A stretch of 64,000 nt of DNA, taken from Candidatus Anderseniibacteriota bacterium. GTDB taxonomy: Bacteria > Patescibacteriota > Andersenbacteria > UBA10190. The DNA is taken from NCBI GenBank assembly GCA_021414205.1, contig JAIOOW010000003.1, forward strand, positions 64,048 to 128,047. The letters are read 5' to 3'. Shown piece by piece: positions 1 through 62,077 of this stretch; position 1 is the stretch's first letter; every line of letters begins with the position of its first letter. The notes beneath the pieces are model-generated. The model ran no database searches, was not told the DNA's origin, and was given only the letters and a program-made list of their open reading frames with translations. Position numbers and translations under genes: made by a program.

Positions 1-685
1 TATCGATCATTAGCCCGCCGATAACTAAACTGAAATTCACGAGCAGTGCCGCGATTAACAGTTTTGGCAACAATTTCTGTACGGAAGTGCTGACAGATTC
101 GAGGCGTAGGGTGGTTGCGAAGGCGATGTATAGTAATGCCACGATGAATCCTAGGTTCGCAAGTCCTTGCACAAACGGCCAAGTTGCTTGTACGAGATTG
201 CTTGAAATGTATTGGCCCTGCCCAACCATCGTGATTACGAGGTTTCCTAGAAACTCTAGGATGAAGCTAGCGAGCCAATTAATCAAAGATAGAATGTATT
301 GGAAAAAGCTTATTAATACTCGCGCAAAGTCCGAAAGCGAAGAGTTCAAGTAGAGCTGAATGTCACCTATAACTTCTGCCGAGCAAGAATAGTAGTTGTT
401 TTTCGCCGTGGTTACGAGACCGCTTCCGTAAGAATATTGAATTATTAGCGGTAATTTTAGTCGATCCGAAGGGATGCTGACCGTATTATCCTTATATGGA
501 TCGAGCGATCCTAAGTATTTACACTGCCGTACGAGACTTGCTGTTGTTCCGGGGAGAAGGTTTGCGTCTATGGAAATCGTTGATAGTTTATTGAGCGAAA
601 CGCTCACATCTGCAGCGAGTGTTATCGAAGGCAGTGCCAATCCGAGGACAGCGATTATAAGATATGGTTTGAGGAAAAATCGCAT
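1..685 (-). CDS. partial hypothetical secreted/membrane protein (5' end in window, continues past window start)
   Basis: Open frame on minus strand from ATG at 685..683 to position 1 with no stop (about 228 aa). N-terminal signal-peptide-like MRFFLKPYLIIAVLGLALPSITLA, hydrophobic C-terminal segments. Start is 1 nt after the stop of the upstream 557-aa gene. Not in ORF track because it has no stop in the window. Confidence 0.4.
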   Translation of the reverse strand, partial: MRFFLKPYLIIAVLGLALPSITLAADVSVSLNKLSTISIDANLLPGTTASLVRQCKYLGSLDPYKDNTVSIPSDRLKLPLIIQYSYGSGLVTTAKNNYYSCSAEVIGDIQLYLNSSLSDFARVLISFFQYILSLINWLASFILEFLGNLVITMVGQGQYISSNLVQATWPFVQGLANLGFIVALLYIAFATTLRLESVSTSVQKLLPKLLIAALLVNFSLVIGGLMID

Positions 686-686: not shown

Positions 687-2360
687 TTATGGTGTAGGGG
701 TAGGACTACTTACGGGTTCTTTTCTTGCGATACAAGCTTCCGTTGTCGGGAAGAAGTAGCAGAAAAGGTCCGTATATACGCTGTTTACAACAGGACTCGC
801 AGTTGCGCCGTTTACAATTGTGCTTATCGACGTGCAAAATCCGCAAGTAACTTCCTGAGGGTTCGGATTCGGATCTTTTATGCCAAGCGCTTCTGCGAAC
901 TGGCCGGTACCTTGTTCTTTATATGGAGCGATTAAGCCCGTGGTAACGTTATTTGGGTTTGGTTGAGGCGTATCGTAATAGGTTTGATAGAGCTGCTGTA
1001 CTTGGGTTGAAATGCCTGCAACTTGGCCAGAGAGTTGATTGATTGAATTATCGCTTGGGAGTGGGCTAGTAGAGGCTCCAAGCACTTGGCCCGTTTGAGC
1101 GGTAACTGGCAGGTCGGGCTGCTGCCCCGGCGTTGTTATAGTTGACGTACCAGCAATCTTTTCGCCGATAACTTGATTAGGAAGCAGGTTCGCACCGGCA
1201 ACGATTTGTGCTGCAATTGCGCTCGATGGAGTAGTAAGGGTGCCATCCACTCCTCCTGTTGCGTTTTTGGTGAGAACGTATTGCCCGAGTGATGGAGTTT
1301 GTGCCCGGTTTTGTTGGAAGGCCAAGCCCTGATTGTATCCTTGTTGAGCTATATCCATCATGCCTGGCAATAGCGAATCTAGCCCCCTGATACTTCGAAT
1401 ATAGTCGTCAAAAGTCGCATCGCTTGGCAAGGACGCTTTTTTATTATTGCCTGTAAATTGAACTTTATTGAGAGCTCCTGGGTCAAGAATTTGCGCATAC
1501 TGAGATGCGATGACGTTACCTGCTGTTGTGTCTACGATAGTTTTTGCGTCTTGGTTCGCACTTACGTTATCTCGGAGTTGGGCAACGGTTTGGGAATTTG
1601 GCCGAATGAAGTTTAACCCCTCGGGTACTGTAACGTTTGCTGGGTTAAGTGCGTCTGCTGGGGCATTTGCGTCTGCTGGTTTTGTGTTCGTGAGTTTGTT
1701 TTTTAGCTCCTGTTCCTCAGTGAGCGTGGTGCCACCCGTAGGGTCTGAGGACAAAAGCGAGACCGCAGACAAGTTAGGCTGTTGCATGTATTGGTCTATG
1801 TTTGCGGGAAATGCTACTGATTGTTCTTGTGCTGGTCCAGGTTGATCGCTGCATCCTGCTCGTCCTAGGCTTGCTTCGCAGTATAGTCTCGCGAGCTCGC
1901 TAAGCTGTCTCCTGGTATCTGTTTCTCGTGCAAATTGCTGGTATAGATATGCTGTCCATAAGTCGTTACCCTCCAATGTAACGTTCCTGGTTACCACGCT
2001 CGGAAGGTTGGTGTGGGTCGATTGCTCCACTGGGTTTGGGGTTGAGTACGGGAGCGGACTTGGCGCACCATTGGCGATTGATTGAGCAGTCGCAGCATTG
2101 TTCCTATCTGTTACTAGTTGTGCCCTGCTATACGGTGATCCGGGAATTCCCGGCTCCACATAGTCTGCTTGGTTTAATGCAGCAAGGACGTTATAGAATA
2201 ATTGCTCCTGAGCTCTATCGGTATAAAATACGGCATGCGGATCGGCGTGAGTGGGCGTTGCAGAAGTCGTGAAAATGACTGCGAATGCAAGGAAAGAAAG
2301 CGCAAGGACTAATTTTCGATTCCAATAAAAAAAATGCAAAGGCATACGACTTGTATGCAC
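687..2360 (-). CDS. hypothetical secreted protein, T/S/N/Q/P-rich low-complexity
   Basis: 557-aa ORF with N-terminal signal peptide (LSFLAFAVIFTTSATPTHA), long low-complexity region, no recognisable catalytic motif. Confidence 0.5.
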   Translation of the reverse strand: MHTSRMPLHFFYWNRKLVLALSFLAFAVIFTTSATPTHADPHAVFYTDRAQEQLFYNVLAALNQADYVEPGIPGSPYSRAQLVTDRNNAATAQSIANGAPSPLPYSTPNPVEQSTHTNLPSVVTRNVTLEGNDLWTAYLYQQFARETDTRRQLSELARLYCEASLGRAGCSDQPGPAQEQSVAFPANIDQYMQQPNLSAVSLLSSDPTGGTTLTEEQELKNKLTNTKPADANAPADALNPANVTVPEGLNFIRPNSQTVAQLRDNVSANQDAKTIVDTTAGNVIASQYAQILDPGALNKVQFTGNNKKASLPSDATFDDYIRSIRGLDSLLPGMMDIAQQGYNQGLAFQQNRAQTPSLGQYVLTKNATGGVDGTLTTPSSAIAAQIVAGANLLPNQVIGEKIAGTSTITTPGQQPDLPVTAQTGQVLGASTSPLPSDNSINQLSGQVAGISTQVQQLYQTYYDTPQPNPNNVTTGLIAPYKEQGTGQFAEALGIKDPNPNPQEVTCGFCTSISTIVNGATASPVVNSVYTDLFCYFFPTTEACIARKEPVSSPTPTP

Positions 2361-2375
2361 GAAATTATAGCATGT

Positions 2376-3161
2376 TTACTGTAGATTGTATTTCTTTTCG
2401 AGTGCGCTTATCTGCGTTGCGATATCTGCGTATACGCCATCTAAATCAGAAACATTTTTTAGCCCAATTAAGCCACTGATTTGATCCGTTTTAAATGCCT
2501 GAATGAGTTTGATGTTTTGAATCAGCGAAATGGTTGCTTGGAGAAGTTTTGTTTGAAGCGGCGCTGCTTCTTGGGGCGTTGCGATCGCCTTAAATAGGTC
2601 GAAGTTTGATTGAACATTTGCGAGGATTGGAGCTAGCGCGTTTGCGTCAGTACCCCCTTCCTGGGCTTGGAATGCATTTACGATATCAGTACCGGTAACG
2701 GACTTAATCTTAGAATTTTGTGCCTGGGAAATGGAATCCAAATACGTTTTAATAGCTGCCTTCCCTGTTGCTGTTGATGTTTTAATGGTCCCAGGCTGCA
2801 ACGCTGGCAATAGCTGACCCTGATTTGCGCTTACGTATGTCGTGAGATTTTTTTGATCTAGTACCTGTGCCTGAGTGGCATCTTTCGGGAGTGTTGCAAC
2901 ATATTTTTTTGTCTCCGGGCCGATATTAGAGGCTGTGCTTTGCGCATATTTTTTCATTTGATCCAGTAATTCTGGGGATAGCGATTGCAAGGGGCTTGGC
3001 GATGGACTCGGAGAAATTTCTACAATTGGACTGGGAGATGCTTGCTGTATTGCCGTATGCGAAAAACCGAGCGTCGTCAGTTTCCATACACCAAGTGCTA
3101 TCACCGTGATAATCAGTACAGTGATAGTTGTCCGTATTCCTAATGCATTTACAGGTGTCAT
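2376..3161 (-). CDS. hypothetical membrane-anchored protein
   Basis: 261 aa with N-terminal TM helix (TITVLIITVIALGVW), SP-repeat linker (SPSPSPSP), Q/A/T-rich ectodomain. Overlaps the upstream gene by 4 nt. Confidence 0.5.
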   Translation of the reverse strand: MTPVNALGIRTTITVLIITVIALGVWKLTTLGFSHTAIQQASPSPIVEISPSPSPSPLQSLSPELLDQMKKYAQSTASNIGPETKKYVATLPKDATQAQVLDQKNLTTYVSANQGQLLPALQPGTIKTSTATGKAAIKTYLDSISQAQNSKIKSVTGTDIVNAFQAQEGGTDANALAPILANVQSNFDLFKAIATPQEAAPLQTKLLQATISLIQNIKLIQAFKTDQISGLIGLKNVSDLDGVYADIATQISALEKKYNLQ

Positions 3162-4147
3162 GGCGCTTGTGGATTTAGGAGTTGAGCTTTCATTTGCACT
3201 AGCTGCGGATAGTATTGTCTATCTATTGCATCGAGCTGGCGAATAGCTACCATTGCCTTTATTTGGTCATTAGAAAAATCCGCAATTTGCCTAAACGTAG
3301 CGGAGAGCAGTTGAGTATATGCGAGGAGTGTCTTGTCATATTGAAGTGCCGATTTTGGCACTGATGCTAAGCGGACTCTTGATTGAAATGCTTCTACTGC
3401 TTCCGCGAGCGTAGTGAATCCGTACGTGCTTCTGTATTGAAAAAAGTCATTGAGCGCAATGGTGAGGCGAGCTTTATCGGAAAGCGATTCAAGGTCGCCA
3501 GCCGTGGTCATGTACTGCGAAGTGTCTGCGGGGGTGTCTGGAGCAGATTTAATGACGGCGTCGTTGACTGGTGGCAGGCCTGTTTCGAGGGGTTGGTTTG
3601 CAATAAATTGGCTAAACGTAACCGGTGATTTGTCAGAGTCTTTTACCGCCGTTGCGTATGCCTGCGTAAGATTAACATTGTCGGCAATTTTTTTGACCGG
3701 CGTTGGAAAGAACGCGTCATTGGATGCTGTTTTGCCGGATGGTGTTGGAGTAGCTCCAATCGATGATCCCACTGTGCAATTTTCCAGTTTGTCGTTCGGC
3801 GCTGGTATGAGCGGGTTGTGGCAATTAGCCACTTCTTTCCCGTCGTTGTACCCGTCCTTGTCTGTGTCTGGGTTATTAGGGTTTGTTCCCCATAGCGATT
3901 CTTGTGCATTGGTAAGACCGTCCTTATCTGGGTCGCCTAGCGGGTCCACTGAAGTGGTTCCGCCTCCTGGGAGTGCCGTCTGGGAATTGGTATCAGGCGT
4001 TTGTGATGTATCTTGTTGTTTATTTAAGCTAGAGACAAAAAAGAGTCCGATTGCAATGAGGATGCTGAGAATAATGATGATAGTGATGACGATAACGACC
4101 CTCCGTGACATGTTGCGTATTATACCACGCCAGCGAGCAATACCCAC
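3158..4147 (-). CDS. hypothetical membrane protein with thrombospondin-type-3-like calcium-binding repeats
   Basis: 329 aa with N-terminal TM (VVIVITIIIILSILIAIGLFFV) and DPDKDGLTNAQE...NPDTDKDGYNDGKE (DxDxDG repeats). Confidence 0.5.
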   Translation of the reverse strand: MGIARWRGIIRNMSRRVVIVITIIIILSILIAIGLFFVSSLNKQQDTSQTPDTNSQTALPGGGTTSVDPLGDPDKDGLTNAQESLWGTNPNNPDTDKDGYNDGKEVANCHNPLIPAPNDKLENCTVGSSIGATPTPSGKTASNDAFFPTPVKKIADNVNLTQAYATAVKDSDKSPVTFSQFIANQPLETGLPPVNDAVIKSAPDTPADTSQYMTTAGDLESLSDKARLTIALNDFFQYRSTYGFTTLAEAVEAFQSRVRLASVPKSALQYDKTLLAYTQLLSATFRQIADFSNDQIKAMVAIRQLDAIDRQYYPQLVQMKAQLLNPQAP

Positions 4148-21726: not shown

Positions 21727-21744
21727 ACGAATATTGTATCACAA

Positions 21745-23607: not shown

Positions 23608-25108
<1,501 letters not shown>

Positions 25109-25124
25109 TATTGACTTAAGAATC

Positions 25125-33494: not shown

Positions 33495-33505
33495 ACGAAA
33501 TACGG

Positions 33506-33577: not shown

Positions 33578-33628
33578 GATATTCGGACTATAGCCAAATA
33601 TGCTGTGCTGTGCAATAAATAGTGGTAC

Positions 33629-33701: not shown

Positions 33702-33733
33702 CTCGAAGTATTTAAGTCGCGTTCGGATACTTT

Positions 33734-34495: not shown

Positions 34496-34527
34496 TTTTC
34501 CTTTGACAAGTTATTACCTAATATTTT

Positions 34528-34977: not shown

Positions 34978-34979
34978 AT

Positions 34980-35408
34980 TTACAAAGAAGCTATTTTAAA
35001 TGATTGAGTATTTTCTGCTCTTTTTTTAAAAAACAATCTAAGAGAGGTATTAGGAATGTTTCTTTCCGTTTCTGCAACTATTGCTATTGCCTCATTAATT
35101 ACTGAGGAGCCACGAGAGCTAATGCTTAATGTTCTTCTTTCTGTTTCAAGAAAGGAGAAGCGAGGAGGAATTAGGGTTGTGCTTAGCGCTAACGCTATTC
35201 TCTCTAGAAATCTTAGGGTTGGTAAAGAAGCTCCGTTTTCAATTCGTGCAATGCTGGGTTGTTTAGTTCCCGTTCTCTTTGCTAGTTCTGTCTGAGTGAG
35301 TCCTTTTGCAATGCGAGCTTCGATTATGAGTCGAGCAATATCTTCAGAAAGATCGATATTTGAGGGGGTATTTCCTAATAATTGTTTTTTTAGTAATGAT
35401 AGTTTCAT
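34980..35408 (-). CDS. higA: XRE-family HTH transcriptional regulator, HigA-like antitoxin
   Basis: IIEARIAKGLTQTELAKRTGTKQPSIARIENG (HTH_3). Immediately downstream of the Gp49-like toxin gene. Confidence 0.7.
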   Translation of the reverse strand: MKLSLLKKQLLGNTPSNIDLSEDIARLIIEARIAKGLTQTELAKRTGTKQPSIARIENGASLPTLRFLERIALALSTTLIPPRFSFLETERRTLSISSRGSSVINEAIAIVAETERNIPNTSLRLFFKKRAENTQSFKIASL

Positions 35409-35413
35409 ATAAA

Positions 35414-35761
35414 TTATTTAAAGTATATTGTTTTATATCGTTTTTCCGCTTTTTTGAGTTCTTTTGGTGGAATTCCTCGAGTTTTTTTCATAAAGCCGTG
35501 GAGTATGTGATAAGTATTGACGGCGTCCTTGGTGAAGAAGAATCGGTAGGAACATTTATTTTTAATATATCTAATGTAGAAAAGTGCTTTATGGGGTTTA
35601 ATCTTTTCCACCACTCTGGACTGCAAGTGTTGCGCCAGGCCCCTACTGTCGATTTGTTCAAAGAGCCAGAAGAATCGCTCTTGCGCCTCTCTTGGTTGCT
35701 TCTCAAGGAAAAGTCGTACGTCGCTTTTCCCAGAAGCGTGTTTCCAGAAACGTATATCCAT
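35414..35761 (-). CDS. higB: phage Gp49-like / HigB-like type II toxin (RelE/ParE superfamily)
   Basis: MDIRFWKHASGKSDVRLFL...YRFFFTKDAVNTYHILHGFMKKTRGIPPKELKKAEKR is the characteristic Gp49/DUF891 pattern. The toxin-first gene order is typical of HigBA. Confidence 0.75.
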   Translation of the reverse strand: MDIRFWKHASGKSDVRLFLEKQPREAQERFFWLFEQIDSRGLAQHLQSRVVEKIKPHKALFYIRYIKNKCSYRFFFTKDAVNTYHILHGFMKKTRGIPPKELKKAEKRYKTIYFK

Positions 35762-35780
35762 TCCCTTGTCTTCATGAGTA

Positions 35781-35806
35781 AATATATAACATATATGTTA
35801 TATATT
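35781..35806. promoter_or_regulatory. 26-bp perfect palindrome (candidate operator/promoter of the toxin-antitoxin operon)
   Basis: AATATATAACATATATGTTATATATT, 20 nt upstream of the higB start. Contains TATA-like -10 candidates. Confidence 0.45.
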
Positions 35807-53371: not shown

Positions 53372-55858
53372 ATGGCAAACGAAGAAGAACAAGTAAATAA
53401 TGTTGGAAAGCTCGTCGGGCAAGAATTGTCGTCTGAAATCCAGAAGAGTTACCTAGATTACGCAATGAGCGTCATCGTTTCTCGCGCCTTGCCTGATGTT
53501 CGCGACGGCATGAAACCTGTTGCGCGCCGTATTTTGTACTCTATGTGGCGCCAGAATTTGCGTTCATCTGCTAAATTCCGTAAATCCGCAAACGTAGTTG
53601 GAGACGTAATGGCAAAGTACCATCCTCATGGAGACTCTTCTATTTACGACGCATTGGCGCGCTTGGTTCAGGACTTCTCATTGAGATACCCGCTTATTGA
53701 CGGACAAGGAAACTGGGGAAATATCGATGGAGACTCCCCTGCGGCAATGCGATATACCGAAGCTCGATTAATGAAAATCTCTGATGAGATGCTTTCTGAT
53801 ATTGCGAAAGAAACAGTTGATTTTATAGATAACTATGACGGATCAAAGAAGGAACCTACGGTGTTGCCAAGCTTATTCCCGCAATTTTTAGTTAACGGAA
53901 CGGTAGGTATTGCCGTTGGTATGGCAACGAACGTGCCGCCACATAATATCAAAGAAGTGTGCCAGGCAGCCATTCACTTGATTGATACGCCAGATGCAAC
54001 AATCAGCGATTTGATGAAATACGTTCAAGGGCCAGACTTTCCTACCGGTGCTGCTATTTATAATAAGCAAGATATTCTCCAGGCGTACGCAACTGGTCGC
54101 GGAGGAATTGTTACACGCGCCATCGCAGATATCGAAGAAGGTAAGAATGGGTCGTTCAAAATTATTGTTCACGAAATTCCATACCTCGTAAACAAGTCTC
54201 AGCTCATTACCAAGATAGCTGACAACGTAAAGGCAGATAGGATTCAAGGTATTCGCGACTTGCGAGATGAATCTGATAAAGACGGTATTCGTATTGTTGT
54301 GGAACTTAAGCGTGACGCATATCCGAAGAAGGTGTTGAATCAATTGTTTGCAACAACTGATTTGCAGAAGACATTCCACGTAAACATGCTTGCGCTCGTT
54401 GATGGCGGAAAGCAGCCAAAGGTTCTTACCCTCAAGGACGCTATTCTCGAGCACATTAGTCATCGTAAAGTTGTTATTACTCGAAGAACGCAATTTGATT
54501 TAGATCGCGCAAAAGAACGAGAACATATATTAGAGGGCTTAAAGAAGGCGCTCGATCATATTGATGAGGTTATTTCTATTATTCGCAAGAGTAAGACGCG
54601 TGAAACAGCGCACGTGAATCTTATTAAAGCATTTAAGTTTTCCGATGCTCAAGCTACTGCAATCCTTGAAATGCGCTTATCTGCTCTGGCTGGCCTTGAA
54701 CGGCAGAAGGTAGAAGACGAATTGCGAGAAAAGAGGGCGTTGATTAAAGAATTGGAAGGAATTTTGAAAGATCCTAAAAAGGTTGCTGCTCTCGTGAAGG
54801 CTGACTACGAAGGCGTTATTAAGCAGTACGGAGACGATCGAAGGACTCGAGTTATTCCAGGGGCTGTGGGTGACTTCTCTCAAGAGGATTTGGTTCCCGA
54901 CGACCCTACTGTTGTTACCATCACTCGTGGTGGATATATTAAGCGTTTGGCGACGAGCACCTATCAAGTGCAGCGACGTGGCGGGAAGGGCGTGAAGGGG
55001 ATGACGACTAAAGAGGAGGATGTTGTAGATATCTTCTTGGCAACAACTACTCATAAACAGCTTCTATTCTTTACCAACCAGGGTCGAGTATTTTCTACGA
55101 ATGCATACGAAATTCCGGAAACAGCGCGAGCTGCTAAAGGGCAAGCGCTTCAGAATTTCTTGGAATTATCTCCAAATGAAAAAGTAACTGCAGTGCAAGA
55201 GGTTCCTGATGCAGAAGAGCCAGGCGAATACTTGGTGATGGTTACGCGCGCGGGGGTAATTAAAAAGACTTCTCGAGAAGATTTCTTGAATATTAGGCGT
55301 ACGGGGCTCAAGGCGATTACGTTGAATAATGATGATGCCCTCGAGTGGGTTGGGGTATCATCGGGTGCTGATAATATCATGATTGTTACTACGGACGGTC
55401 AGGCGATTTTATTCCCAGAAAAAGATATTCGAGCAATGGGCCGCACCGCTGCCGGCGTTCGCGGAATCAAATTAAAGAAAGGTGACGAAGTGGTTGCGAT
55501 GCACGTCATTCATTCTGCAAATGATGCAAAGGAAATTCTTGTAATGACTCGTGAAGGGTTCGGAAAGCGTACTCCCGTATCGCAATATCGAATTCAGAAA
55601 CGCGGAGGAATGGGTATTAAGACTGCCCAAGTTACTGCAAAGACGGGAAAAATTATTAAGGCAGTAGTAGTAGATTCCGATAGCGTTGATACGACTGATA
55701 TATTAGTAATATCTGAACGTGGACAGGTGATTCGAGTGTCTGTGGCATCGGTAAGTCAGCAGGGGCGTTCAACACAAGGCGTTCGATTAATGCGACCATC
55801 CGATAAGAGTGGAAAAATTGCAACATTTACTATTTGGCGAGAAGTACAAGAGGCATAG
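53372..55858 (+). CDS. gyrA: DNA gyrase subunit A
   Basis: [21 protein letters not shown], active-site Tyr region [11 protein letters not shown]-terminal beta-pinwheel repeats. 828 aa. Confidence 0.95.
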
Positions 55859-55881
55859 TTGTGATATACTAGAGGGGATAT

Positions 55882-56424
55882 ATGGCTCAACGAAATCCCT
55901 TCATTCGTCCTGATACGTTTTGGCACGCCTTAATGCTTCGTGCGAATCAATCTGTTGTGCATTTAGGCTGCGGTGCGGGGTTTTATATTATTCCCGCTGC
56001 ACGAATTGTGGGGAAAAAGGGCAGGGCGATCGGAGTAGATATATTGCCAGACATGCTTGCGGAAGTTGAAAACAAAGCTCAGCAATTCGGGCTAGGCGAT
56101 ATCGTCAAAACATTTCGATCAAATATCGAGAATACTCCAGGAAGTCCGATCGATGAGCATTCTATGGACTGGGTATTAATTGCTAATATCCTGCATCAGT
56201 CTGATCCGCAAAAAGTATTCCAAGAAGCTCGCCGCATCGTGGGTGCTAATGGGCACGTCGCAGTTGTTGGGTGGGCAACGTCCGCAACTCCCTTAGGGCC
56301 CCCGAGCGAAAAGCGCATTTCCGAGGACGATGTTAAGCGAGTCGCTGAAGAAAACGGCCTTACGTTAGTAAAAGAGTTTGCGCCTAGCCCCTATCATTAT
56401 GGGCTGGTTTTAGCGCCTGCGTAA
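55882..56424 (+). CDS. class I SAM-dependent methyltransferase
   Basis: VVHLGCGAGFY motif I, 180 aa. Confidence 0.75.
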   Translation: MAQRNPFIRPDTFWHALMLRANQSVVHLGCGAGFYIIPAARIVGKKGRAIGVDILPDMLAEVENKAQQFGLGDIVKTFRSNIENTPGSPIDEHSMDWVLIANILHQSDPQKVFQEARRIVGANGHVAVVGWATSATPLGPPSEKRISEDDVKRVAEENGLTLVKEFAPSPYHYGLVLAPA

Positions 56425-56431
56425 TACGGAT

Positions 56432-57718
56432 ATGACGTCACGGATACCACTATTTTTACTTGTTGTTATAAGCGCGCTTGCTCTCGCTGGCTTTGGTTGC
56501 CGCGCACCTGCGCCTGTAAAAACCACCACTACTACCAGCCTTGTTGTGTGGGGGTTGTGGGAAGATAGCTCTACGATGGACCCTATTTTGCGAGCATTCA
56601 AAGACCAAACCGGAATCGCTGTAGAGTATAAAAAAATTGCAGATATTGGCACGTATGAAAAAACTTTACTAGAGGCTTTAGCTTCAGGGAGGGGTCCTGA
56701 TGTGTTTGTGATTAACAATGCATGGGTAGATGTTCACAAAGATATTTTGAGCCCTGCTCCGCTGGCTGTTATTAACCCGGCGCAGTTGCAGAGCGAGTTT
56801 GTCGATGTAGTTACAAAAGATGTTGTGCGAGGCGGATATATTTATGCTCTTCCTACATCAGTTGATACATTGGCGTTATTTGTGAATACGAATATTTTTA
56901 ATGCAAACGGCATTGCTCAAATGCCGACGACGTGGACAGAATTTCAGAACGACGTATCCAAGATCACGAAAGTTTCTCGATTGGGCGTTATTGATCAGAG
57001 CGGGGCCGCCATCGGTACGGGCAGTAACGTCAATCGTGCCCCGGACATTCTACAGCTCTTAATGATGCAGAGCGGCTTGCCGATTTTAGATACTTCGCAC
57101 GGAGATAAGAGGATCGATATTGCGAATGCGCAAGGAGAGCGATCGCTTACGTTCTATACCGACTTCGCAAACAAATCTAAGCAAGTATACACATGGGATT
57201 CCACGCAAGATTATTCCATAGATGCGTTTTCGGAAGGGAAGACGGCAATGATGCTCAATTATTCCTATCAAATCCCAACAGTGCGTGCGAAAAATCCTCG
57301 ATTGCAGTTTGCAATTGCGCCTGTGCCCCAAGTCGGAACAGATCCTAATATCGTACAAGCTACTTTTGCAAGCTATTGGCCGTTTGCAGTATCTGCAAAC
57401 TCCAAAGCTCCTGGCGCAGCATGGCAATTTGTGCGATTCCTCACATCGCAACAAAACGCTGACACTGTGAATAAGTCGGAAGCTATTCCGCCTGCACGCA
57501 GGGATTCTATCGCGCAATATAGTACTGATCCTATTATGGGAGTATTTGCACAACAATCGCTCAAAGCAGTTTCTTGGCCGCGCTTTGATATATCAGCCAC
57601 GGATGCTATATTTACAAGTATGATTGATAGCGTTGCAACTGGTGGGGCTTCAGTATCCGATGTATTAAAGACGGCGCAAGATCAACTTCAGCGAATAATT
57701 GCAGGCAATGGAAACTAG
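56432..57718 (+). CDS. ABC transporter substrate-binding lipoprotein (family 1 extracellular solute-binding protein)
   Basis: Lipobox LALAGFGC and a sugar-type SBP fold. No ABC permease or ATPase genes adjacent. Confidence 0.75.
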   Translation: MTSRIPLFLLVVISALALAGFGCRAPAPVKTTTTTSLVVWGLWEDSSTMDPILRAFKDQTGIAVEYKKIADIGTYEKTLLEALASGRGPDVFVINNAWVDVHKDILSPAPLAVINPAQLQSEFVDVVTKDVVRGGYIYALPTSVDTLALFVNTNIFNANGIAQMPTTWTEFQNDVSKITKVSRLGVIDQSGAAIGTGSNVNRAPDILQLLMMQSGLPILDTSHGDKRIDIANAQGERSLTFYTDFANKSKQVYTWDSTQDYSIDAFSEGKTAMMLNYSYQIPTVRAKNPRLQFAIAPVPQVGTDPNIVQATFASYWPFAVSANSKAPGAAWQFVRFLTSQQNADTVNKSEAIPPARRDSIAQYSTDPIMGVFAQQSLKAVSWPRFDISATDAIFTSMIDSVATGGASVSDVLKTAQDQLQRIIAGNGN

Positions 57719-58136
57719 GTTTAAAAAAATTATTTCAAGTATTTTAATACTAGGGTTATTTTTCGCGATTGCCCCTCATATTACTTTTGCGCAAGGTGTC
57801 GGACAGAGCTCGAGCGGAATCACAAATCCTCTTGGCGGTGGTGCTGACCAGACAATAACTTCTGTGCTTACTGGCATTATTAAATGGATGCTTGGCTTGG
57901 TCGGGTTTCTTGCACTCATTGCGCTTATTATTGCCGGTGGCAGAATGATTATTGATTTCGGCAACGAAGAACAGGTTCGAAAGGCGAAAATGACCATTAC
58001 GTGGGCAGTAATAGGGTTGCTCGTTGTAATCCTTTCATACGCAATTGTTAATATTGTGAGCACACAGATATTAGGAGCTGGAGGAAGTTCGTCGGGGTCG
58101 GGAGGAAGTAGCGTTAATCCTCCTCCGGGAACGTGA
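57708..58136 (+). CDS. TrbC/VirB2-like (type IV secretion system pilin-like) small membrane protein, paralog 1
   Basis: Signal peptide, AQG, then a C-terminal two-helix hairpin LIALIIAGGRMIIDFGNEEQVRKAKMTITWAVIGLLVVILSYAIVNIV, then a G/S-rich tail. Confidence 0.55.
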   Translation: METRFKKIISSILILGLFFAIAPHITFAQGVGQSSSGITNPLGGGADQTITSVLTGIIKWMLGLVGFLALIALIIAGGRMIIDFGNEEQVRKAKMTITWAVIGLLVVILSYAIVNIVSTQILGAGGSSSGSGGSSVNPPPGT

Positions 58137-58137
58137 T

Positions 58138-58527
58138 ATGAAATATCTATTACCAGTAATTGTATTGGCCGTTTTTGTGTTTGGAGTGTCGTGCGCCCCA
58201 GTAAGAGCACAGAGTGGCGGTGATCCGCAAGGCTTCAATGCCGGGCTTGATAGCGTTAAGCAAATTGCAGGACAGAACGGTCTCAATAATAAACAGCAAA
58301 CTACAAAGGAGATTTTGCAAACAATCGTCGCGTGGCTTACGTCTTTACTGGCAACAGTTGCTCTTATTTCGCTTGTATATGGCGGATACCTATACATATC
58401 TTCTCAAGGAGACGAGGGGAATGTATCTAAGGGAAAGGCGATTCTTTTGTATTCGATTATCGGCCTCATTATTGTTGGATTGGCAGGCGTTATCGTCAAC
58501 GTTGTCATTAGTGTTGCAACTCAATAA
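58138..58527 (+). CDS. TrbC/VirB2-like pilin-like small membrane protein, paralog 2
   Basis: Signal peptide plus LISLVYGGYLYISSQGDEGNVSKGKAILLYSIIGLIIVGLAGVIVNVV. Start is 2 nt after the stop of paralog 1. Confidence 0.55.
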   Translation: MKYLLPVIVLAVFVFGVSCAPVRAQSGGDPQGFNAGLDSVKQIAGQNGLNNKQQTTKEILQTIVAWLTSLLATVALISLVYGGYLYISSQGDEGNVSKGKAILLYSIIGLIIVGLAGVIVNVVISVATQ

Positions 58528-58529
58528 CT

Positions 58530-58928
58530 ATGTCTAAATTTACAAAAGCAGCTACATTCGTTATCGCAGTTACATCTCTGTCGCTGTTTGTATTTCCAGT
58601 TGCTGCGCAGATTACAAAAATTTCTGGTTCCGACTGTTCTCAGCTTGGTATTCAATGTACAGGAAGCGAAACTTCCACGACGCTTGTTCAGCGCATCACC
58701 ACAATTGTTAATGCGCTATTAGTTCTTGTAGGGATTATTGCTTCAATTTATCTGGTGCTTGGCGGAATTCGCTATGTAATGTCGCAAGGGGATGAGCATG
58801 AGGCAGAACAAGCAAAGCTCACGATGCTGTACGCAGTTATTGGAATTATTCTAATTGGATTATCTGCCGCGATTGTTAATTTTCTTATCTATATTGCTGG
58901 CGGTCAAGGTGGAGCAACGGGCCCATAA
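58530..58928 (+). CDS. TrbC/VirB2-like pilin-like small membrane protein, paralog 3
   Basis: Signal peptide plus IYLVLGGIRYVMSQGDEHEAEQAKLTMLYAVIGIILIGLSAAIVNFL. Confidence 0.55.
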   Translation: MSKFTKAATFVIAVTSLSLFVFPVAAQITKISGSDCSQLGIQCTGSETSTTLVQRITTIVNALLVLVGIIASIYLVLGGIRYVMSQGDEHEAEQAKLTMLYAVIGIILIGLSAAIVNFLIYIAGGQGGATGP

Positions 58929-58999
58929 AATAGTTTGTTGATTATTTTTGTGGTATATTTTGGATATAAAATATTGAACATGAAGGAGGTGAGTCGTAT

Positions 59000-59350
59000 A
59001 TGAACATCAAATCAATCGTTCGCGTTACAACAGGCGCAGTTGCGCTTGCAGTTTCACCTCTTATTGCGTTCGCACAGGGGTTGCAACCAGCAATTCCATT
59101 CGCGAATACGGCTCGAGGAGGTCTCATCCCCGCGATCCTAACAATCGTTAACGGATTACTCGTTATTTCCGGTATCGTAGCTTCTATCTACTTAGTGTTA
59201 GGTGGGGTTCGATACATCATGTCCCAAGGAGAAGAAGGGGAAACAGAGAAAGCGAAGAATACGATTCTGTATGCAATCATCGGTCTTATCGTTATTGCTC
59301 TATCAGCAGCTATCGTAAACTTTATTATCGGCACTGTCGCAGTAGCGTAA
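59000..59350 (+). CDS. TrbC/VirB2-like pilin-like small membrane protein, paralog 4
   Basis: Own RBS AAGGAGGTG. Signal peptide plus IYLVLGGVRYIMSQGEEGETEKAKNTILYAIIGLIVIALSAAIVNFI. Confidence 0.55.
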   Translation: MNIKSIVRVTTGAVALAVSPLIAFAQGLQPAIPFANTARGGLIPAILTIVNGLLVISGIVASIYLVLGGVRYIMSQGEEGETEKAKNTILYAIIGLIVIALSAAIVNFIIGTVAVA

Positions 59351-59364
59351 GCAATGTTAATCGC

Positions 59365-59398
59365 AAAAACACCCCACCATATTGGCGGGGTGTTTTTT
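59365..59398 (+). terminator. rho-independent terminator after pilin-like paralog 4
   Basis: ACACCCCaccatattggcGGGGTGT followed by TTTTTT. Confidence 0.7.
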
Positions 59399-59418
59399 AT
59401 TAGTGATATACTGCATAT

Positions 59419-59637
59419 ATGATTAGCAATTCAGGATTCATCGTTGCAAGTAATATCGTATACGTTTTGATTGTTGTATTTTTTATATACCGAATGCTTC
59501 GCGCAGCGTCTGTGTATAATTGGAATCCCGGTAGAACAGCTGTGCAGCAAAAGCAAAAGATGAAAATTTTAATAGGTCTTATCGTTATCGCCGTAGTCGG
59601 AATAATTGCCGCAATTACAAACATTCTGTTTGGGTAA
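59419..59637 (+). CDS. hypothetical small 2-TM protein (72 aa), possible degenerate fifth member of the pilin-like array
   Basis: Two hydrophobic helices and KILIGLIVIAVVGIIAAITNIL resembling the paralog C-termini. Confidence 0.35.
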   Translation: MISNSGFIVASNIVYVLIVVFFIYRMLRAASVYNWNPGRTAVQQKQKMKILIGLIVIAVVGIIAAITNILFG

Positions 59638-59672
59638 AAAAATAAGCCCACAAGTTTTTTATACTTGTGGGC
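59634..59672 (-). terminator. rho-independent terminator of the 382-aa membrane-protein gene
   Basis: GCCCACAAG-loop-CTTGTGGGC with an A-run on the plus strand (T-run on the minus strand). Confidence 0.65.
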
Positions 59673-59699
59673 TCGTTCGAGTTGAAAGAGCGACTATAT

Positions 59700-60848
59700 T
59701 CATCTTGCTGTGTAGTCAATGTCATAGATCACTTCGATCATGACTTCCCCCTCAGGAACGTTGGGGGGCTGGATCCGCAAGAATAGATCCTCCTCGTAGC
59801 TTGGAACAGAGTATGTTCCGTACAGGTTTGCTGGTCTCGATACAACGGTCTCTTCCTGAAGAACGTCTCGAAACTTGTTGTTTTCCACCACCCCGATCAT
59901 TACCTGTCCAGGCTTTTGTTGGACGAGGTCATCTGATAGAGTGATGCCGTTCATGTCGGCGTAGCGGATGTAGACCTGCCACAGAGGCGAGTCTGCTCCA
60001 TTGCCGACTTGTACGGTTCCCCAATCGTACCCGTAACACTCCTGAGGATTTTGCGGGTTGCGCGTCAATACCCGTTTCGCCGTGGCGATTCGGATATGGT
60101 TTGGCAGCGGGAACACTTCTGCTATCACGCGGTTTGATACGCCTCGATAGCCTAAAGTTTTCACGCCCCAAATTCGAATTGCGTCTCCTCCTGTTACCGA
60201 GCCCGTGTTGTATAGCGGGATCGTTTCCTCGTGAGCTAAGTGGTGAGGAGTAGGCTCGCTTGCCTGTGAGAACAACCTCACCTCTCCTCCGCTCCAATAC
60301 CCCGGACATGTGTACTTAATTCGGGATCCTCCCAAAAAAGCAAGGTTAATGCCCAGATACCGAGGCCGTCCATCTAAGGGAACCTCAACATCTACTTTCG
60401 CAGGGATGATTTTCCATCCATGTTTTCGCGGACCTTCCACGAAAAACTTGTACCGGTCTCCGTTCTCGTTTCGTCGAGCAACAGCTGGTGCCAACTGTTT
60501 TTTCGGTGCGGAGGCAGGTGCGTGAGCATTCTGCCAAAGTTTTGTGTTGGCATAAGTAACTTGCACAACTCCTAGGTATATCCATGGAAAAACCAAGGAT
60601 AAGACCCACAAGCATAGCGCCCACCAAGCAACTGTGTATATCGGAGCCTTTTTTAAAGGCTCGACAAGTGTCTTGTTGAGCAATTCTTTCCACCAGCTTG
60701 TTGCAGGAGCAGCAGTAGGCGTACCTGCAGGTGGTGTAGCGGGTGCAGGCTTTCTGTGTCCTGCTTTGCCTGATTGAGCTCGCGTCCAGATCGCAAAGCT
60801 TACGAACAAGATTGCTAGCACGGTTAACGTAATTGCAATTGGCGCCAT
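59700..60848 (-). CDS. hypothetical membrane protein (N-terminal TM, Pro/Ala-rich linker, second TM, beta-rich C-terminal domain), partner of the SPFH gene
   Basis: 382-aa ORF, 26 nt downstream of the SPFH gene on the same strand. Local GC is above the window average. Confidence 0.5.
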   Translation of the reverse strand: MAPIAITLTVLAILFVSFAIWTRAQSGKAGHRKPAPATPPAGTPTAAPATSWWKELLNKTLVEPLKKAPIYTVAWWALCLWVLSLVFPWIYLGVVQVTYANTKLWQNAHAPASAPKKQLAPAVARRNENGDRYKFFVEGPRKHGWKIIPAKVDVEVPLDGRPRYLGINLAFLGGSRIKYTCPGYWSGGEVRLFSQASEPTPHHLAHEETIPLYNTGSVTGGDAIRIWGVKTLGYRGVSNRVIAEVFPLPNHIRIATAKRVLTRNPQNPQECYGYDWGTVQVGNGADSPLWQVYIRYADMNGITLSDDLVQQKPGQVMIGVVENNKFRDVLQEETVVSRPANLYGTYSVPSYEEDLFLRIQPPNVPEGEVMIEVIYDIDYTAR

Positions 60849-60874
60849 CTAGACCGTCTCCTTTGGTTCGGTTG

Positions 60875-62077
60875 TTATTTTGAACCTTTTAATAATTTCG
60901 ATGCAAGGGAGCCTACAACATCTCCTCCTGCCGTTAGAATTGTTCCTTGAGGCAATTTTTGAAGTGTCTCGGCAGCGATCGCATATCGGCCTGCTGGTGT
61001 TCCTGCCTGAGCAGCTAGCTCTTTAGCAAAGGCAGCTTGCCCTTGCCCGATAAGCTCTAATGCCTCCCTCTCTCCCTCTGCATCGGCAATTCTTGCTTTT
61101 GCAAGCAATTTTGCCTTTGCTTCAGCAGACATCGCCTTTGCAACTTCGGGGTCAGCAGGAAATACGAGCTTCACGTTGAAGTCAAAGAGGGTAAGGGCGG
61201 GGCCGATGTCGGCCCGCACAAAATCCTCGATGTGTCTCCTGTCAGTAGTCTTTTTTGACTCTTCTTCAAGCTTCTCCCAGAGAGTTTTTTTGTCACGAAC
61301 ACCATTTACAAAGGTAAATTGGAGTAATCCGGCTTCTTCGAAGATGGTCCCTACGAGATTAAGCATTAAGCGCACTTCAATAATAGGGTCATTGTCGAGC
61401 GCTTGTTTCTGGGTAACTGTTGGAAGTGTTCGGTTTGCAGCTTCGCTCACTGCCGGTTCCAACTCCTCAGAGAAGATGTGTGCAATACAAGGAACGTCAT
61501 ACGGCTTGTATTCTGGCGCGCCCGTTGTGGTATTGAAGCGTTCCAAATATTGAACCTCGTGCGGAACTGCCAGGTCTTTGCGATACCCCCCCGGCCCTCG
61601 ATGAAGCGGAATCTTTGTGAAAAGCATTTGCATGCCTTTCGGATTGTCGCTCATTGCAGACGTGATTTCCAGATAAATGGAATTTGGTGCCGAGGGGTAA
61701 TTCTCGTCAGCAAGCGTATTTGCTTGGGTCGTCGTGAATGGTGATGTGAATTGCGTGGTGGGTAAGTAGACAGCTTGATTTAGTGGGTAGGGGAAAACCC
61801 ACGCAATTCCTGAGTCGAATAACCCCGCTCTTCCTTTGCCGAGTCTTGAATAGCATGCATATGCATCCCCCAAATACACGATAACGATAATTCGATCTAT
61901 TCGTGTTGTGTGGAGCGCCAAAATTACAAACTCGCCAATTGCGATCGCAGACATGAAAATATGCCATGCTACGATAGCTGATGGGTCGAAAATGAATAAT
62001 TCCGGTACGAACACCCATGCAAGCACGAATAATGTAATCAAGGCTACGTTCATCACGAAGTGGACTGCTTTCATCAT
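60875..62077 (-). CDS. SPFH/band-7 (flotillin/stomatin-like) domain membrane protein
   Basis: N-terminal TM helices, central SPFH-like region, C-terminal AEAKAKLLAKARIADAEGEREALELIGQGQAAFAKELA coiled-coil typical of band-7 proteins. Confidence 0.6.
   Translation of the reverse strand: MMKAVHFVMNVALITLFVLAWVFVPELFIFDPSAIVAWHIFMSAIAIGEFVILALHTTRIDRIIVIVYLGDAYACYSRLGKGRAGLFDSGIAWVFPYPLNQAVYLPTTQFTSPFTTTQANTLADENYPSAPNSIYLEITSAMSDNPKGMQMLFTKIPLHRGPGGYRKDLAVPHEVQYLERFNTTTGAPEYKPYDVPCIAHIFSEELEPAVSEAANRTLPTVTQKQALDNDPIIEVRLMLNLVGTIFEEAGLLQFTFVNGVRDKKTLWEKLEEESKKTTDRRHIEDFVRADIGPALTLFDFNVKLVFPADPEVAKAMSAEAKAKLLAKARIADAEGEREALELIGQGQAAFAKELAAQAGTPAGRYAIAAETLQKLPQGTILTAGGDVVGSLASKLLKGSK

What the first reader, a model, noticed from the sequence alone, without database searches (positions are those of the whole stretch)
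57708..59637. Tandem array of four (possibly five) paralogous small membrane proteins resembling TrbC/VirB2-type pilins, with no other secretion-system genes
Four consecutive genes encode 116-145-aa proteins with a cleavable signal peptide and a conserved C-terminal hairpin (consensus roughly LVLGG-RYIMSQGDE-x5-KAK-x3-LYAIIGLII-x-LSAAIVNF). The first three are translationally coupled with 2-3-nt gaps. The fourth has its own RBS and terminator. A fifth 72-aa 2-TM ORF follows. This architecture (signal peptide plus two hydrophobic helices around a short charged loop) is that of the pilin subunits of conjugative type IV secretion systems, yet no VirB4, VirB6 or VirD4 gene is in the window. The array follows an orphan ABC substrate-binding lipoprotein. 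Divergent paralogs would fit a surface filament or host-interaction role in a reduced-genome organism, or antigenic variation.
Basis: partly seen in the sequence, partly recalled or inferred. Interest (0 to 1): 0.65.

Follow-up and report, generated by a model that had tools for sequence, protein, structure and literature searches.

The report
Patescibacterial secretion-pilin gene array
Four neighbouring genes in this ultra-small (Candidatus Andersenbacteria) bacterium encode divergent copies of the pilin-like subunit of the type IV secretion system, a kind of gene array already described for this bacterial group in 2025, and the start of the secretion machinery's own operon lies at the far left edge of the same window.

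Summary
Four co-oriented genes (57708-59350) encode 116-142-aa proteins, each with an AxA|Q signal-peptide site and a two-helix hydrophobic hairpin. All four pass Pfam PF18895 (T4SS_pilin), and all are under purifying selection. A conserved 72-aa leaderless two-helix ORF follows and may be a fifth, degenerate paralogue.

The organism is a Candidatus Andersenbacteria (Patescibacteria/CPR). Such VirB2-like pilin arrays are already published: 441 arrays of 2-11 genes (PMC12102498), and one array is essential in Southlakia epibionticum. This is therefore a new member of a known kind.

The "no secretion genes" part is a window effect. The left edge (4147 to 1, minus strand) is syntenic with a relative's operon that continues into PrgI/VirB3-like, TraC-like, VirB4 and another pilin gene.

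Two additions from this work:
- The array belongs to a widely conserved gyrA-methyltransferase-sugar-binding-lipoprotein-pilin block. In 58 of 59 informative metagenomic loci with this binding-protein orthologue, pilin genes follow downstream.
- The last pilin is far more conserved than the first two.

Antigenic variation and holin readings are not supported. Homology to canonical VirB2 and structural matches to solved pilins were not significant.

The parts
57708..58136 (+). pilin paralogue 1 (142 aa). Its ATG overlaps the end of the substrate-binding-protein gene by 11 nt. It has a Gly/Ser-rich PPPGT tail. With paralogue 2 it is the fastest-evolving copy.
   Evidence: PF18895 40.7 bits, PF04956 E 5.6e-5. 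NF045849 43.2 bits against a cut-off of 40. Orthologue identity 62-81%, dN/dS 0.11-0.17.
58138..58527 (+). pilin paralogue 2 (129 aa). It starts 1 nt after the stop of gene 1 and has no Shine-Dalgarno sequence, so translational coupling is likely. It has the longest variable mature N-terminus.
   Evidence: PF18895 47.6 bits. Sequence. Orthologue identity 57-95%.
58530..58928 (+). pilin paralogue 3 (132 aa). It starts 2 nt after gene 2. Its mature N-terminus carries a conserved Cys pair, DCxxLGIxC.
   Evidence: PF18895 53.6 bits. 34 homologues, all PF18895. Alignment A2. AF2 helices 49-84 and 89-123.
59000..59350 (+). pilin paralogue 4 (116 aa). It has its own strong ribosome-binding site and is the most conserved copy, so it is the candidate major subunit.
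   Evidence: PF18895 48.6 bits. GGAGGTGA lies upstream. 93-100% identical in four relatives for which the comparison was reliable, dN/dS 0-0.08. AF2 model of the mature form: helices 17-51 and 54-90, pLDDT 76.
59365..59397 (+). intrinsic terminator after paralogue 4
   Evidence: Inverted repeat of 15 nt, 93% complementary. Fold -20.9 kcal/mol, z -4.2, followed by a T run.
59419..59637 (+). 72-aa two-helix ORF without a signal peptide. It is conserved and may be a leaderless, degenerate fifth paralogue.
   Evidence: Found in all Andersenbacteria loci examined. dN/dS 0.03-0.10. It aligns in register to pilin HMM positions 64-123, with hhalign probability 81%. An 18/20-nt match links it to helix 2 of paralogue 4. 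It has no Pfam family.
59644..59674 (.). bidirectional terminator between the 72-aa ORF and the convergent 382-aa gene
   Evidence: -19.2 kcal/mol, z -5.4.
56432..57718 (+). sugar-type ABC substrate-binding lipoprotein (SBP_bac_1, 428 aa). No permease or ATPase gene is adjacent. It is the conserved 5' partner of the pilin array.
   Evidence: PF01547 109.9 bits. The closest solved relatives bind maltose or oligosaccharides. The leader ends in a lipobox-like AGFGC. Pilin genes lie downstream in 58 of 59 informative orthologue loci.
55882..56424 (+). class I SAM methyltransferase, 7 nt upstream of the substrate-binding-protein gene. It is part of the conserved gyrA-methyltransferase-binding-protein-pilin block. 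A functional link to the pilins is not shown.
   Evidence: It sits directly upstream in 75 of 80 metagenomic loci.
2..685 (-). 5' part (228 codons) of a polytopic membrane protein cut off by the window edge. It has a signal peptide, an extracellular segment and three helices. It is a VirB6-like candidate of the T4SS operon.
   Evidence: The family has about 650 aa and 3823 hits. One member has a weak TrbL/VirB6 hit, E 1.3e-3. It is 47% identical to the 666-aa gene that lies four genes before VirB4 in L104.
687..4147 (-). three membrane-anchored or secreted proteins without an assigned family (557, 261 and 329 aa; the last carries TSP3 repeats), between ksgA and the VirB6-like gene. They form the proximal part of the T4SS operon as judged by synteny.
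   Evidence: They are 56-71% identical to, and collinear with, L104 genes 3535-6932.

Best explanation
Identity. The four genes encode paralogous VirB2-like pilin subunits (Pfam PF18895) of the Patescibacteria-type, monoderm-derived type IV secretion system. The 72-aa ORF that follows may be a leaderless fifth relative.

Proposed mechanism:
1. Shown: the genes are transcribed with, and partly translationally coupled to, an upstream sugar-binding lipoprotein gene. This rests on the operon anatomy.
2. Inferred from sequence: each precursor is exported by Sec and cut by signal peptidase I after a conserved AxA motif. This leaves a 90-115-aa membrane hairpin of helix, short Gly/acidic/Lys loop and helix, with a variable N-terminal segment and a variable C-terminal tail facing outward.
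3. Inferred from the family and the literature: the VirB4-powered machine extracts these hairpins from the membrane and assembles them into a pilus or a wall-spanning conduit at the contact with a host cell. The operon for that machine begins at the left edge of this window and continues beyond it.
4. Inferred: the strongly conserved fourth gene, with its own ribosome-binding site and terminator, is the likely major subunit. The faster-evolving genes 1-3 would be minor or specificity-determining subunits.

The array is a vertically inherited chromosomal block (gyrA-methyltransferase-binding protein-pilins). It is not a mobile element.
For: Family and fold:
- All four proteins exceed the PF18895 gathering score. 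There are weaker hits to TrbC/VirB2, CagC, DUF4134 and DUF6112 and to the Mycoplasma ICE pilin-like family NF045849.
- Leader, AxA|Q site and two hydrophobic helices are present in each. AF2 gives a helical hairpin.

Real, maintained genes:
- dN/dS is 0-0.17 in all genes, with a conservation gradient pil4 > pil3 > pil1/pil2.
- Arrays of 3, 4 or 6 copies sit at the same chromosomal place across Andersenbacteria.

Link to VirB4:
- In relative L104, the operon collinear with window 7192-1 continues into a PrgI-like gene, a TraC-like gene, VirB4 (PDB 4AG5 E 1.5e-44) and a 231-aa protein that matches my pilin HMM at E 1.5e-20.
- L014 has VirB4 about 5 kb from its pilin pair.
- L018 has a VirD4-like ATPase next to its pilins.

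Literature:
- 441 VirB2-like arrays of 2-11 genes are reported in Patescibacteria, averaging 25% identity, with the pilin gene near virB4 in only 1135 of 1948 assemblies (PMC12102498).
- VirB4 is listed as present in the Andersenbacteria genome that holds syntenic locus L010.
- The pilin array is essential in S. epibionticum (PMC10633639; PMC12857230).
Against: - VirB4 itself is not in the window, and I could not fetch the DNA to the left of it. The link in this genome therefore rests on synteny.
- No significant sequence or profile similarity to solved or canonical pilins was found: PDB profile search and hhalign against Agrobacterium VirB2, probability 1%.
- Foldseek returns only generic helical hairpins, so the fold is compatible but not diagnostic.
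- Signal-peptide cleavage was judged by rule, not by a trained predictor.
- No pilus has been seen for any Patescibacteria T4SS.
- The near-universal coupling to a substrate-binding protein is not explained by a simple pilus model.
Confidence: 0.75

Rival explanations
1. The hairpin proteins work with the co-transcribed sugar-binding lipoprotein rather than with the T4SS. They would oligomerise in the membrane as the anchoring or channel part of a solute-capture or uptake device that replaces the missing ABC permease.
For: - The binding-protein orthologue is followed by pilin-family genes in 58 of 59 informative loci, 49 of them within 100 bp and often with overlapping stop and start codons.
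- No permease or ATPase gene is adjacent.
- No VirB4-like ATPase lies within 6 kb downstream in those loci.
- Hits to canonical pilins are not significant.
Against: - The same protein family is encoded next to VirB4 or VirD4-like ATPases in L104, L014 and L018 and in 1135 assemblies in the literature.
- gyrA and a methyltransferase are equally conserved upstream. Conserved synteny alone therefore does not prove a functional link.
- No known transporter is built from such subunits.
Confidence: 0.12
2. The array is an antigenic- or phase-variation system. Silent and expressed pilin copies would exchange by recombination to vary the cell surface.
For: - It is a tandem array of divergent paralogues (35-50% identity).
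- Precedent is cited for Bartonella and Anaplasma VirB2 arrays.
- Copy number varies between 3 and 6 among relatives.
Against: - No repeat longer than 23 nt links the copies, and there are no inverted repeats or invertase sites.
- Every copy has its own leader and an intact frame.
- One-to-one orthologues stay in fixed order across relatives.
- dN/dS is 0-0.17, and gene 4 is almost invariant.
- The xerC-like integrase seen in relatives lies about 8 kb away, next to rpsO, and looks like a housekeeping gene.
Confidence: 0.03
3. The genes encode another kind of small membrane protein, such as holins, bacteriocin-immunity proteins or type IV (PilA-like) pilins, and only resemble T4SS pilins by composition.
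For: - Hydrophobic two-helix proteins attract spurious matches.
- Fold searches hit only generic hairpins.
Against: - No holin or other annotated PHROG family and no PADLOC family matches.
- The PF18895 matches cover the whole 71-position model at E 1e-10 to 1e-14.
- There is no class III (G|FTLxE) prepilin leader in the sequences.
- No lysin, toxin or prophage genes are nearby.
- The array sits in a conserved housekeeping context.
Confidence: 0.03

Closest known systems
VirB2-like pilin arrays of the Patescibacteria T4SS (Quinonero-Coronel et al. 2025, PMC12102498; essential six-gene array in Southlakia epibionticum ML1, Wang et al. 2023, PMC10633639)
   Same: - Same Pfam family (PF18895) and same phylum.
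- Tandem, sequence-divergent but structurally uniform paralogues (35-50% identity here, against a published mean of 25% and maximum of 54%).
- Sec-type leaders.
- A genome lineage with an MPF-FATA-like VirB4.
   Different: - Here the array is about 57 kb from the T4SS operon rather than inside it.
- It is fused into an operon with a sugar-binding lipoprotein, in a gyrA-methyltransferase-binding protein-pilin block that the paper's text does not mention.
- The class is Andersenbacteria. [quoted passage not shown]
Canonical conjugative pilins TrbC/VirB2/TraA of diderm T4SS (PF04956; Agrobacterium VirB2)
   Same: - Small precursor with a long cleavable leader.
- Two hydrophobic helices around a short loop.
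- Sub-threshold PF04956 hits that cover the whole model.
   Different: - Scores are below the family threshold, and the profile comparison with VirB2 is not significant.
- The genes are not next to virB3/virB4.
- The host is a monoderm.
- No VirB5, TraF or TraX partners are seen.
- The mature N-terminal regions are much longer and variable.
Mbov_0395 / MMCAP2_0565 pilin-like conjugal transfer protein of Mycoplasma ICEs (NCBIfam NF045849)
   Same: Gene 1 passes the curated cut-off (43.2 bits against 40) and genes 2-4 score 28-37 bits. Both belong to wall-poor or monoderm lineages whose VirB4 is of the MPF-FATA type.
   Different: The Mycoplasma protein is a single gene inside a mobile ICE. Here there is a chromosomal multi-copy array with no relaxase or transposase.
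Tandem VirB2 paralogues of Bartonella and Anaplasma effector T4SS
   Same: Several divergent VirB2 copies in tandem, in a host-dependent bacterium with a reduced genome.
   Different: Those arrays are proposed to serve immune evasion in animals. Here there is no sign of diversifying selection or recombination, and the presumed host is another microbe.

Membership tests
PF18895 T4SS_pilin (Patescibacteria/monoderm VirB2-like pilins) | Profile-HMM score above the curated gathering threshold over the whole model | tested here: met
   40.7, 47.6, 53.6 and 48.6 bits against 26.6. Model positions 2-71 (genes 1-3) or 9-71 (gene 4) of 71 are covered. Precomputed Pfam on the identical contig agrees.
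PF18895 T4SS_pilin (Patescibacteria/monoderm VirB2-like pilins) | Cleavable Sec leader followed by two membrane helices joined by a short loop | tested here: met
   Hydropathy peaks and AxA|Q sites in all four. The cleavage motif FPVAAQI is nearly invariant in 30 orthologues. AF2 hairpins. Cleavage itself is predicted, not shown.
PF18895 T4SS_pilin (Patescibacteria/monoderm VirB2-like pilins) | Encoded in a genome that has the VirB4-based T4SS | tested here: inconclusive
   VirB4 is not in the window. However, window 7192-1 is collinear with a relative's operon that continues into PrgI-like, TraC-like and VirB4 genes plus a pilin gene. Table S1 of PMC12102498 lists VirB4 in the genome that holds syntenic locus L010. 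The DNA to the left of the window could not be fetched.
PF18895 T4SS_pilin (Patescibacteria/monoderm VirB2-like pilins) | Occurs as tandem arrays of divergent paralogues | tested here: met
   Four copies at 35-50% pairwise identity. Relatives have 3-7 copies.
PF04956 TrbC/VirB2 (canonical conjugative pilins) | Profile-HMM score above the gathering threshold, or significant profile similarity to VirB2 | tested here: not met
   Best score 23.7 bits against 27.9 (gene 1), E 0.002 for gene 3, and none for genes 2 and 4. hhalign of alignment A2 against Agrobacterium VirB2: probability 1.2%, E 0.046. No PDB pilin by profile search.
PF04956 TrbC/VirB2 (canonical conjugative pilins) | Fold match to solved T4SS pilins (TraA, VirB2) | tested here: inconclusive
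PF04956 TrbC/VirB2 (canonical conjugative pilins) | Assembly into an extracellular pilus by the T4SS; N-terminal modification or cyclisation | not testable with these tools
   This needs EM, mass spectrometry or genetics.
NCBIfam NF045849 Mbov_0395 pilin-like conjugal transfer protein | Score above the curated cut-off (40 bits) | tested here: inconclusive
   Gene 1 scores 43.2 bits and passes. Genes 2-4 score 28.4, 36.5 and 37.5 bits and fall below. There is no ICE context here.
Holins / phage small membrane proteins | Match to a holin family and a lysis-gene context | tested here: not met
   PHROGs gives no holin family. There is only one unknown-function hit, E 1.5e-4, for gene 1. No lysin or prophage genes are nearby.
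Type IV (PilA-like) pilins | Short class III leader ending G|(F/M)xxxE, cleaved by a prepilin peptidase | tested here: not met
   The leaders are 24-28 aa long, of the Sec type and end in AxA. No G-F-T-L-x-E motif is present (sequences).
ABC importer substrate-binding protein (SBP_bac_1) - the upstream gene | SBP fold family, with cognate permease and ATPase genes in the same operon | tested here: inconclusive
   The family criterion is met (PF01547 109.9 bits; sugar-binding relatives in the PDB). No permease or ATPase gene is adjacent, here or in relatives. Whether partners exist elsewhere in the genome is unknown.

The most novel reading that the evidence does not exclude
The pilin arrays linked to the substrate-binding protein are a distinct, ancient module of Parcubacteria-type Patescibacteria. 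In it, a membrane-anchored sugar-binding lipoprotein would work physically with the T4SS pilin filament or conduit. It could act as the host-glycan receptor of the pilus, or as the capture step of a T4SS-dependent import route for host-derived carbohydrates. Either role would give the essential but functionally unexplained Patescibacteria T4SS a concrete substrate-side partner.
Probability: 0.2. Interest if true: 0.7.

Novelty: new member of a known kind. Interest (0 to 1): 0.35.

Why it matters
Patescibacteria make up a large share of bacterial diversity. They live attached to other microbes, and in the one species tested they cannot grow without their type IV secretion system and its pilin array. 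What that system transports is unknown.

This locus adds little to the existence of such arrays, which is already published. It does show three things:
- In Andersenbacteria, and in many other lineages sampled from metagenomes, the main pilin array is separated from the machine's operon.
- The array is almost always co-transcribed with a sugar-type substrate-binding lipoprotein.
- The array combines one nearly invariant subunit with several fast-evolving ones.

This gives testable hypotheses about major and minor subunits and about a possible link between the secretion system and carbohydrate recognition or uptake at the host interface.

Tried and rejected
- Sequence or profile search of the PDB with the pilin alignment gave nothing relevant.
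- hhalign against Agrobacterium VirB2 (fetched) was in register but not significant. The same holds for the VirB6-like family against VirB6 and against the PDB.
- tblastn of gene 1 against 72,556 plasmids found no match.
- PHROGs and PADLOC scans for holin or defence readings were negative.
- One large homologue search used a putative ATPase from L018. It proved to be a VirD4-type coupling protein of Gracilibacteria/Peregrinibacteria and listed no Andersenbacteria.
- Exact-sequence look-ups of three left-edge window proteins, meant to fetch the DNA beyond position 1, were not on record. Two look-ups of VirB6-like homologues landed on 2.4-kb contigs.
- Table S3 of PMC12102498 is truncated in the held copy, so the T4SS parts lists for the Andersenbacteria genomes could not be read.
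- Antigenic variation was rejected: no repeats and purifying selection.
- The minus-strand ORFs that overlap the array (for example 57776-58210) were treated as shadow frames, because all conservation and HMM signal lies on the + strand.
- The dN value for gene 4 against L010 is an artefact of a guessed start coordinate and was ignored.

Full report
**1. What is in the sequence**

The region 57708-59637 holds four co-oriented ORFs on the + strand.
- Gene 1: 57708-58136, 142 aa from the ATG that gene callers use; 145 aa from TTG 57699.
- Gene 2: 58138-58527, 129 aa.
- Gene 3: 58530-58928, 132 aa.
- Gene 4: 59000-59350, 116 aa.

Gene 1 overlaps the stop of the upstream gene by 11 nt. Genes 1/2 and 2/3 are 1 and 2 nt apart, with no Shine-Dalgarno sequence. 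Gene 4 follows after 71 nt and has GGAGGTGA upstream. A hairpin with a T run closes the unit (59365-59397; -20.9 kcal/mol, z -4.2). A 72-aa ORF (59419-59637) follows, and then a bidirectional terminator.

Each of the four proteins has three features:
- a basic and hydrophobic leader ending TFA|Q, VRA|Q, VAA|Q or AFA|Q;
- a variable segment of roughly 20-40 residues;
- two hydrophobic helices joined by a conserved loop, consensus GG-RYI-SQGDE-x5-KAK.

Paralogues are 35-50% identical. They share no DNA repeat longer than 23 nt.

**2. Are the genes real**

Orthologues of every gene occur in the same order in related contigs. Nei-Gojobori dN/dS against them is 0.0-0.17 for all four genes, for the 72-aa ORF and for the upstream gene.

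Conservation is uneven. Gene 4 is 93-100% identical in four relatives for which the comparison was reliable. Gene 3 is 74-98% identical across the five relatives compared. Genes 1 and 2 drop to 57-81% in most of them.

**3. Family**

All four proteins pass the Pfam gathering threshold of PF18895 T4SS_pilin, at 40.7-53.6 bits against 26.6. They have sub-threshold hits to TrbC/VirB2 (E 5.6e-5 for gene 1, covering model positions 6-96 of 98), CagC, DUF4134 and DUF6112. Gene 1 also passes the curated cut-off of NCBIfam NF045849, the Mycoplasma ICE 'pilin-like conjugal transfer protein', and genes 2-4 fall just below it.

AlphaFold models give a leader helix plus a helical hairpin. For gene 3, pLDDT is 70 with helices at 49-84 and 89-123. 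For mature gene 4, pLDDT is 76 with helices at 17-51 and 54-90.

- Foldseek against the PDB finds only generic hairpins.
- A profile search of PDB sequences finds nothing.
- hhalign against Agrobacterium VirB2 aligns in register, but with 1% probability.

So membership of PF18895 is established. Homology to canonical diderm VirB2 is plausible but not shown here. Holin and defence libraries give nothing. The leaders are not of the type IV prepilin kind.

**4. Organism and literature**

Named homologues are from Candidatus Andersenbacteria. The window also carries an rRNA operon, 15 tRNA genes and housekeeping genes.

Quinonero-Coronel et al. 2025 (PMC12102498) searched 3,035 Patescibacteria genomes with PF18895 and PF04956, among other profiles. 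They report:
- VirB2-like pilins in 1,948 VirB4-containing assemblies, near virB4 in 1,135 of them;
- 441 arrays of 2-11 pilin genes, with a mean identity of 25% and a maximum of 54%.

Wang et al. 2023 (PMC10633639) and a 2025 review (PMC12857230) describe the essential six-pilin array of Southlakia epibionticum. The kind of feature is therefore known, and this locus is a further example.

**5. Is it really an orphan**

No ORF in the window matches VirB4, VirD4 or other named T4SS families. The left edge, however, holds a tightly packed minus-strand operon:
- ksgA (4980-4120);
- three membrane-anchored or secreted proteins without an assigned family (4147-687), the 329-aa one carrying TSP3 repeats;
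- an ORF that runs off the window (685-1), with a signal peptide and three helices.

That partial ORF belongs to a large family of polytopic proteins of about 650 aa (3,823 hits). One member has a weak full-length TrbL/VirB6 match, E 1.3e-3. Profile comparisons with VirB6 were not significant.

A relative's contig (L104) is collinear with window 7192-1:
- UvrD, 84% identity;
- KsgA, 70%;
- the three proteins without an assigned family, 71%, 64% and 56%;
- the polytopic protein, 47%.

L104 then continues with a 238-aa gene, a PrgI/VirB3-like gene, a TraC-like gene and a 608-aa VirB4 (PDB 4AG5 E 1.5e-44, TrwK 5e-10). A 167-aa gene follows, and then a 231-aa protein that matches my pilin HMM at E 1.5e-20.

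The paper also notes that ksgA is often near virB4. It lists VirB4 as present in the Andersenbacteria genome that holds syntenic locus L010.

The 'no secretion system' impression is thus a window effect. The T4SS operon starts about 53 kb from the array, and VirB4 should lie a few kb beyond position 1. This last step is an inference from synteny, because I could not fetch that DNA.

**6. The conserved context**

The upstream gene (56432-57718) is an SBP_bac_1 protein with a lipobox-like leader. Its closest solved relatives bind maltose or oligosaccharides. No permease or ATPase gene is adjacent, here or in relatives.

In all Andersenbacteria loci the order is gyrA, methyltransferase, binding protein, then 3-6 pilin genes, then the 72-aa ORF. 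The binding protein also precedes pilin arrays in a Colwellbacteria genome and in two unclassified genomes.

A scan of JGI metagenomes with the binding-protein alignment returned 80 loci at 37-83% identity.
- Of the 59 loci with at least 600 bp downstream, 58 have pilin-HMM hits downstream on the same strand. In 49 of them the first hit lies within 100 bp, often with overlapping stop and start codons. Arrays hold 1-7 genes, some with large N-terminal extensions.
- gyrA lies upstream in 56 loci, and the methyltransferase lies directly upstream in 75.
- No large Walker-A ATPase lies within 6 kb downstream. The neighbours there are cell-envelope genes.

Neither the text of PMC12102498 nor a library search mentions this link. 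Because gyrA is conserved alongside, synteny alone does not prove that the binding protein and the pilins work together. The recurrent start/stop overlap does suggest co-expression.

**7. The fifth ORF**

The 72-aa ORF is conserved and under purifying selection, and it has two hydrophobic helices but no leader. It aligns in register with the pilin hairpin, at hhalign probability 81% with low HMM bit scores. It shares an 18/20-nt stretch with helix 2 of gene 4.

It is plausibly a leaderless derivative of a pilin. The evidence is weak, because hydrophobic helices align easily.

**8. Mechanism and rivals**

*Best explanation (0.75).* These are Sec-exported, signal-peptidase-cleaved VirB2-like subunits. 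The VirB4-driven T4SS assembles them into a pilus or wall-spanning conduit at the host contact. Gene 4 would be the major subunit, and genes 1-3 would be variable minor or specificity subunits.
- Shown: family membership, protein architecture, purifying selection, operon anatomy, and linkage of the family to VirB4 in relatives.
- Inferred: signal-peptide cleavage, polymerisation and the division of roles among the copies.

*Rivals.*
- A T4SS-independent membrane module serving the binding protein (0.12).
- Antigenic variation (0.03). It is contradicted by the lack of repeats and by stable orthology.
- Another small-membrane-protein family, such as holins (0.03).

**9. Verdict**

The pilin interpretation is supported at the level of PF18895. 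The 'orphan' aspect is not supported. The feature is a new member of a known kind.

The modest added interest lies in three points:
- the conserved coupling to a sugar-binding lipoprotein;
- the unequal conservation of the paralogues;
- the hit to the Mycoplasma ICE pilin-like family, which bears on the published suggestion that monoderm MPF-FATA systems lack VirB2 homologues.

Noticed in passing
window 53372-59637; loci L012, L013, L017, L019-L101: The block gyrA-methyltransferase-sugar-binding lipoprotein-pilin array is conserved far beyond Andersenbacteria. In 58 of 59 informative metagenomic loci with the binding-protein orthologue (37-83% identity), pilin genes lie directly downstream. 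No VirB4-like ATPase is within 6 kb. The T4SS paper's text does not mention this.
   Followed up: yes
window 1-4980 (minus strand); L104 2683-13858: A ksgA-linked operon of proteins without an assigned family ends in a truncated polytopic membrane protein at the window edge. It is collinear with a relative's operon that continues into PrgI-like, TraC-like and VirB4 genes and a pilin gene. The three proteins (329 aa with TSP3 repeats, 261 aa and 557 aa) may be uncharacterised T4SS components.
   Followed up: partly
window 59419-59637: A conserved 72-aa two-helix ORF without a signal peptide. It aligns weakly but in register with the pilin hairpin and shares 18/20 nt with helix 2 of gene 4.
   Followed up: partly
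window 58632-58658 (gene 3 residues 35-43); alignment A2: Orthologues of gene 3 keep a Cys pair (DCxxLGIxC) in the exposed mature N-terminus. This suggests a disulfide-bonded loop that is specific to this paralogue.
   Followed up: no
window 57708-58136: Gene 1 passes the curated cut-off of NCBIfam NF045849, the pilin-like protein of Mycoplasma ICEs. That would mean some monoderm MPF-FATA elements do carry a VirB2-like protein, contrary to the assumption discussed in PMC12102498.
   Followed up: no
L026, L029, L030, L054, L058, L061, L071, L076, L090 and others: Many binding-protein-linked arrays include proteins of 200-1200 aa that match the pilin HMM. They may be pilin hairpins fused to large extra domains.
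   Followed up: no
window 59700-62077 (minus strand): Two convergent genes (382 aa and 400 aa, each with two N-terminal hydrophobic helices) follow the array in all Andersenbacteria loci, but they diverge quickly. The 400-aa protein has a faint SPFH/stomatin similarity (Pfam E 0.0025; PDB E 0.5). No family is assigned.
   Followed up: partly
window 16701-25112 (minus strand): The rRNA operon has protein genes inside the 16S-23S spacer: a CCA-adding enzyme at 21745-23217 and a small protein with mechanosensitive-channel helices at 20532-21242. These sit between tRNA-Ile and tRNA-Ala. The 23S match spans 3065 nt against a 2925-position model, so it may contain an insertion.
   Followed up: no
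window 33504-35800: A low-GC islet (0.37 against about 0.45) lies beside tRNA-Val and a tRNA-Ile with the unusual anticodon TAT. It carries an Abi_alpha-like gene, a 149-aa ORF with no family and an HTH regulator. It may be a small integrated defence or mobile remnant.
   Followed up: no
L018 6831-11161: In a Peregrinibacteria genome, a VirD4-type coupling-protein ATPase is divergently adjacent to two large pilin-family genes. The family of this ATPase is widespread in Gracilibacteria.
   Followed up: partly
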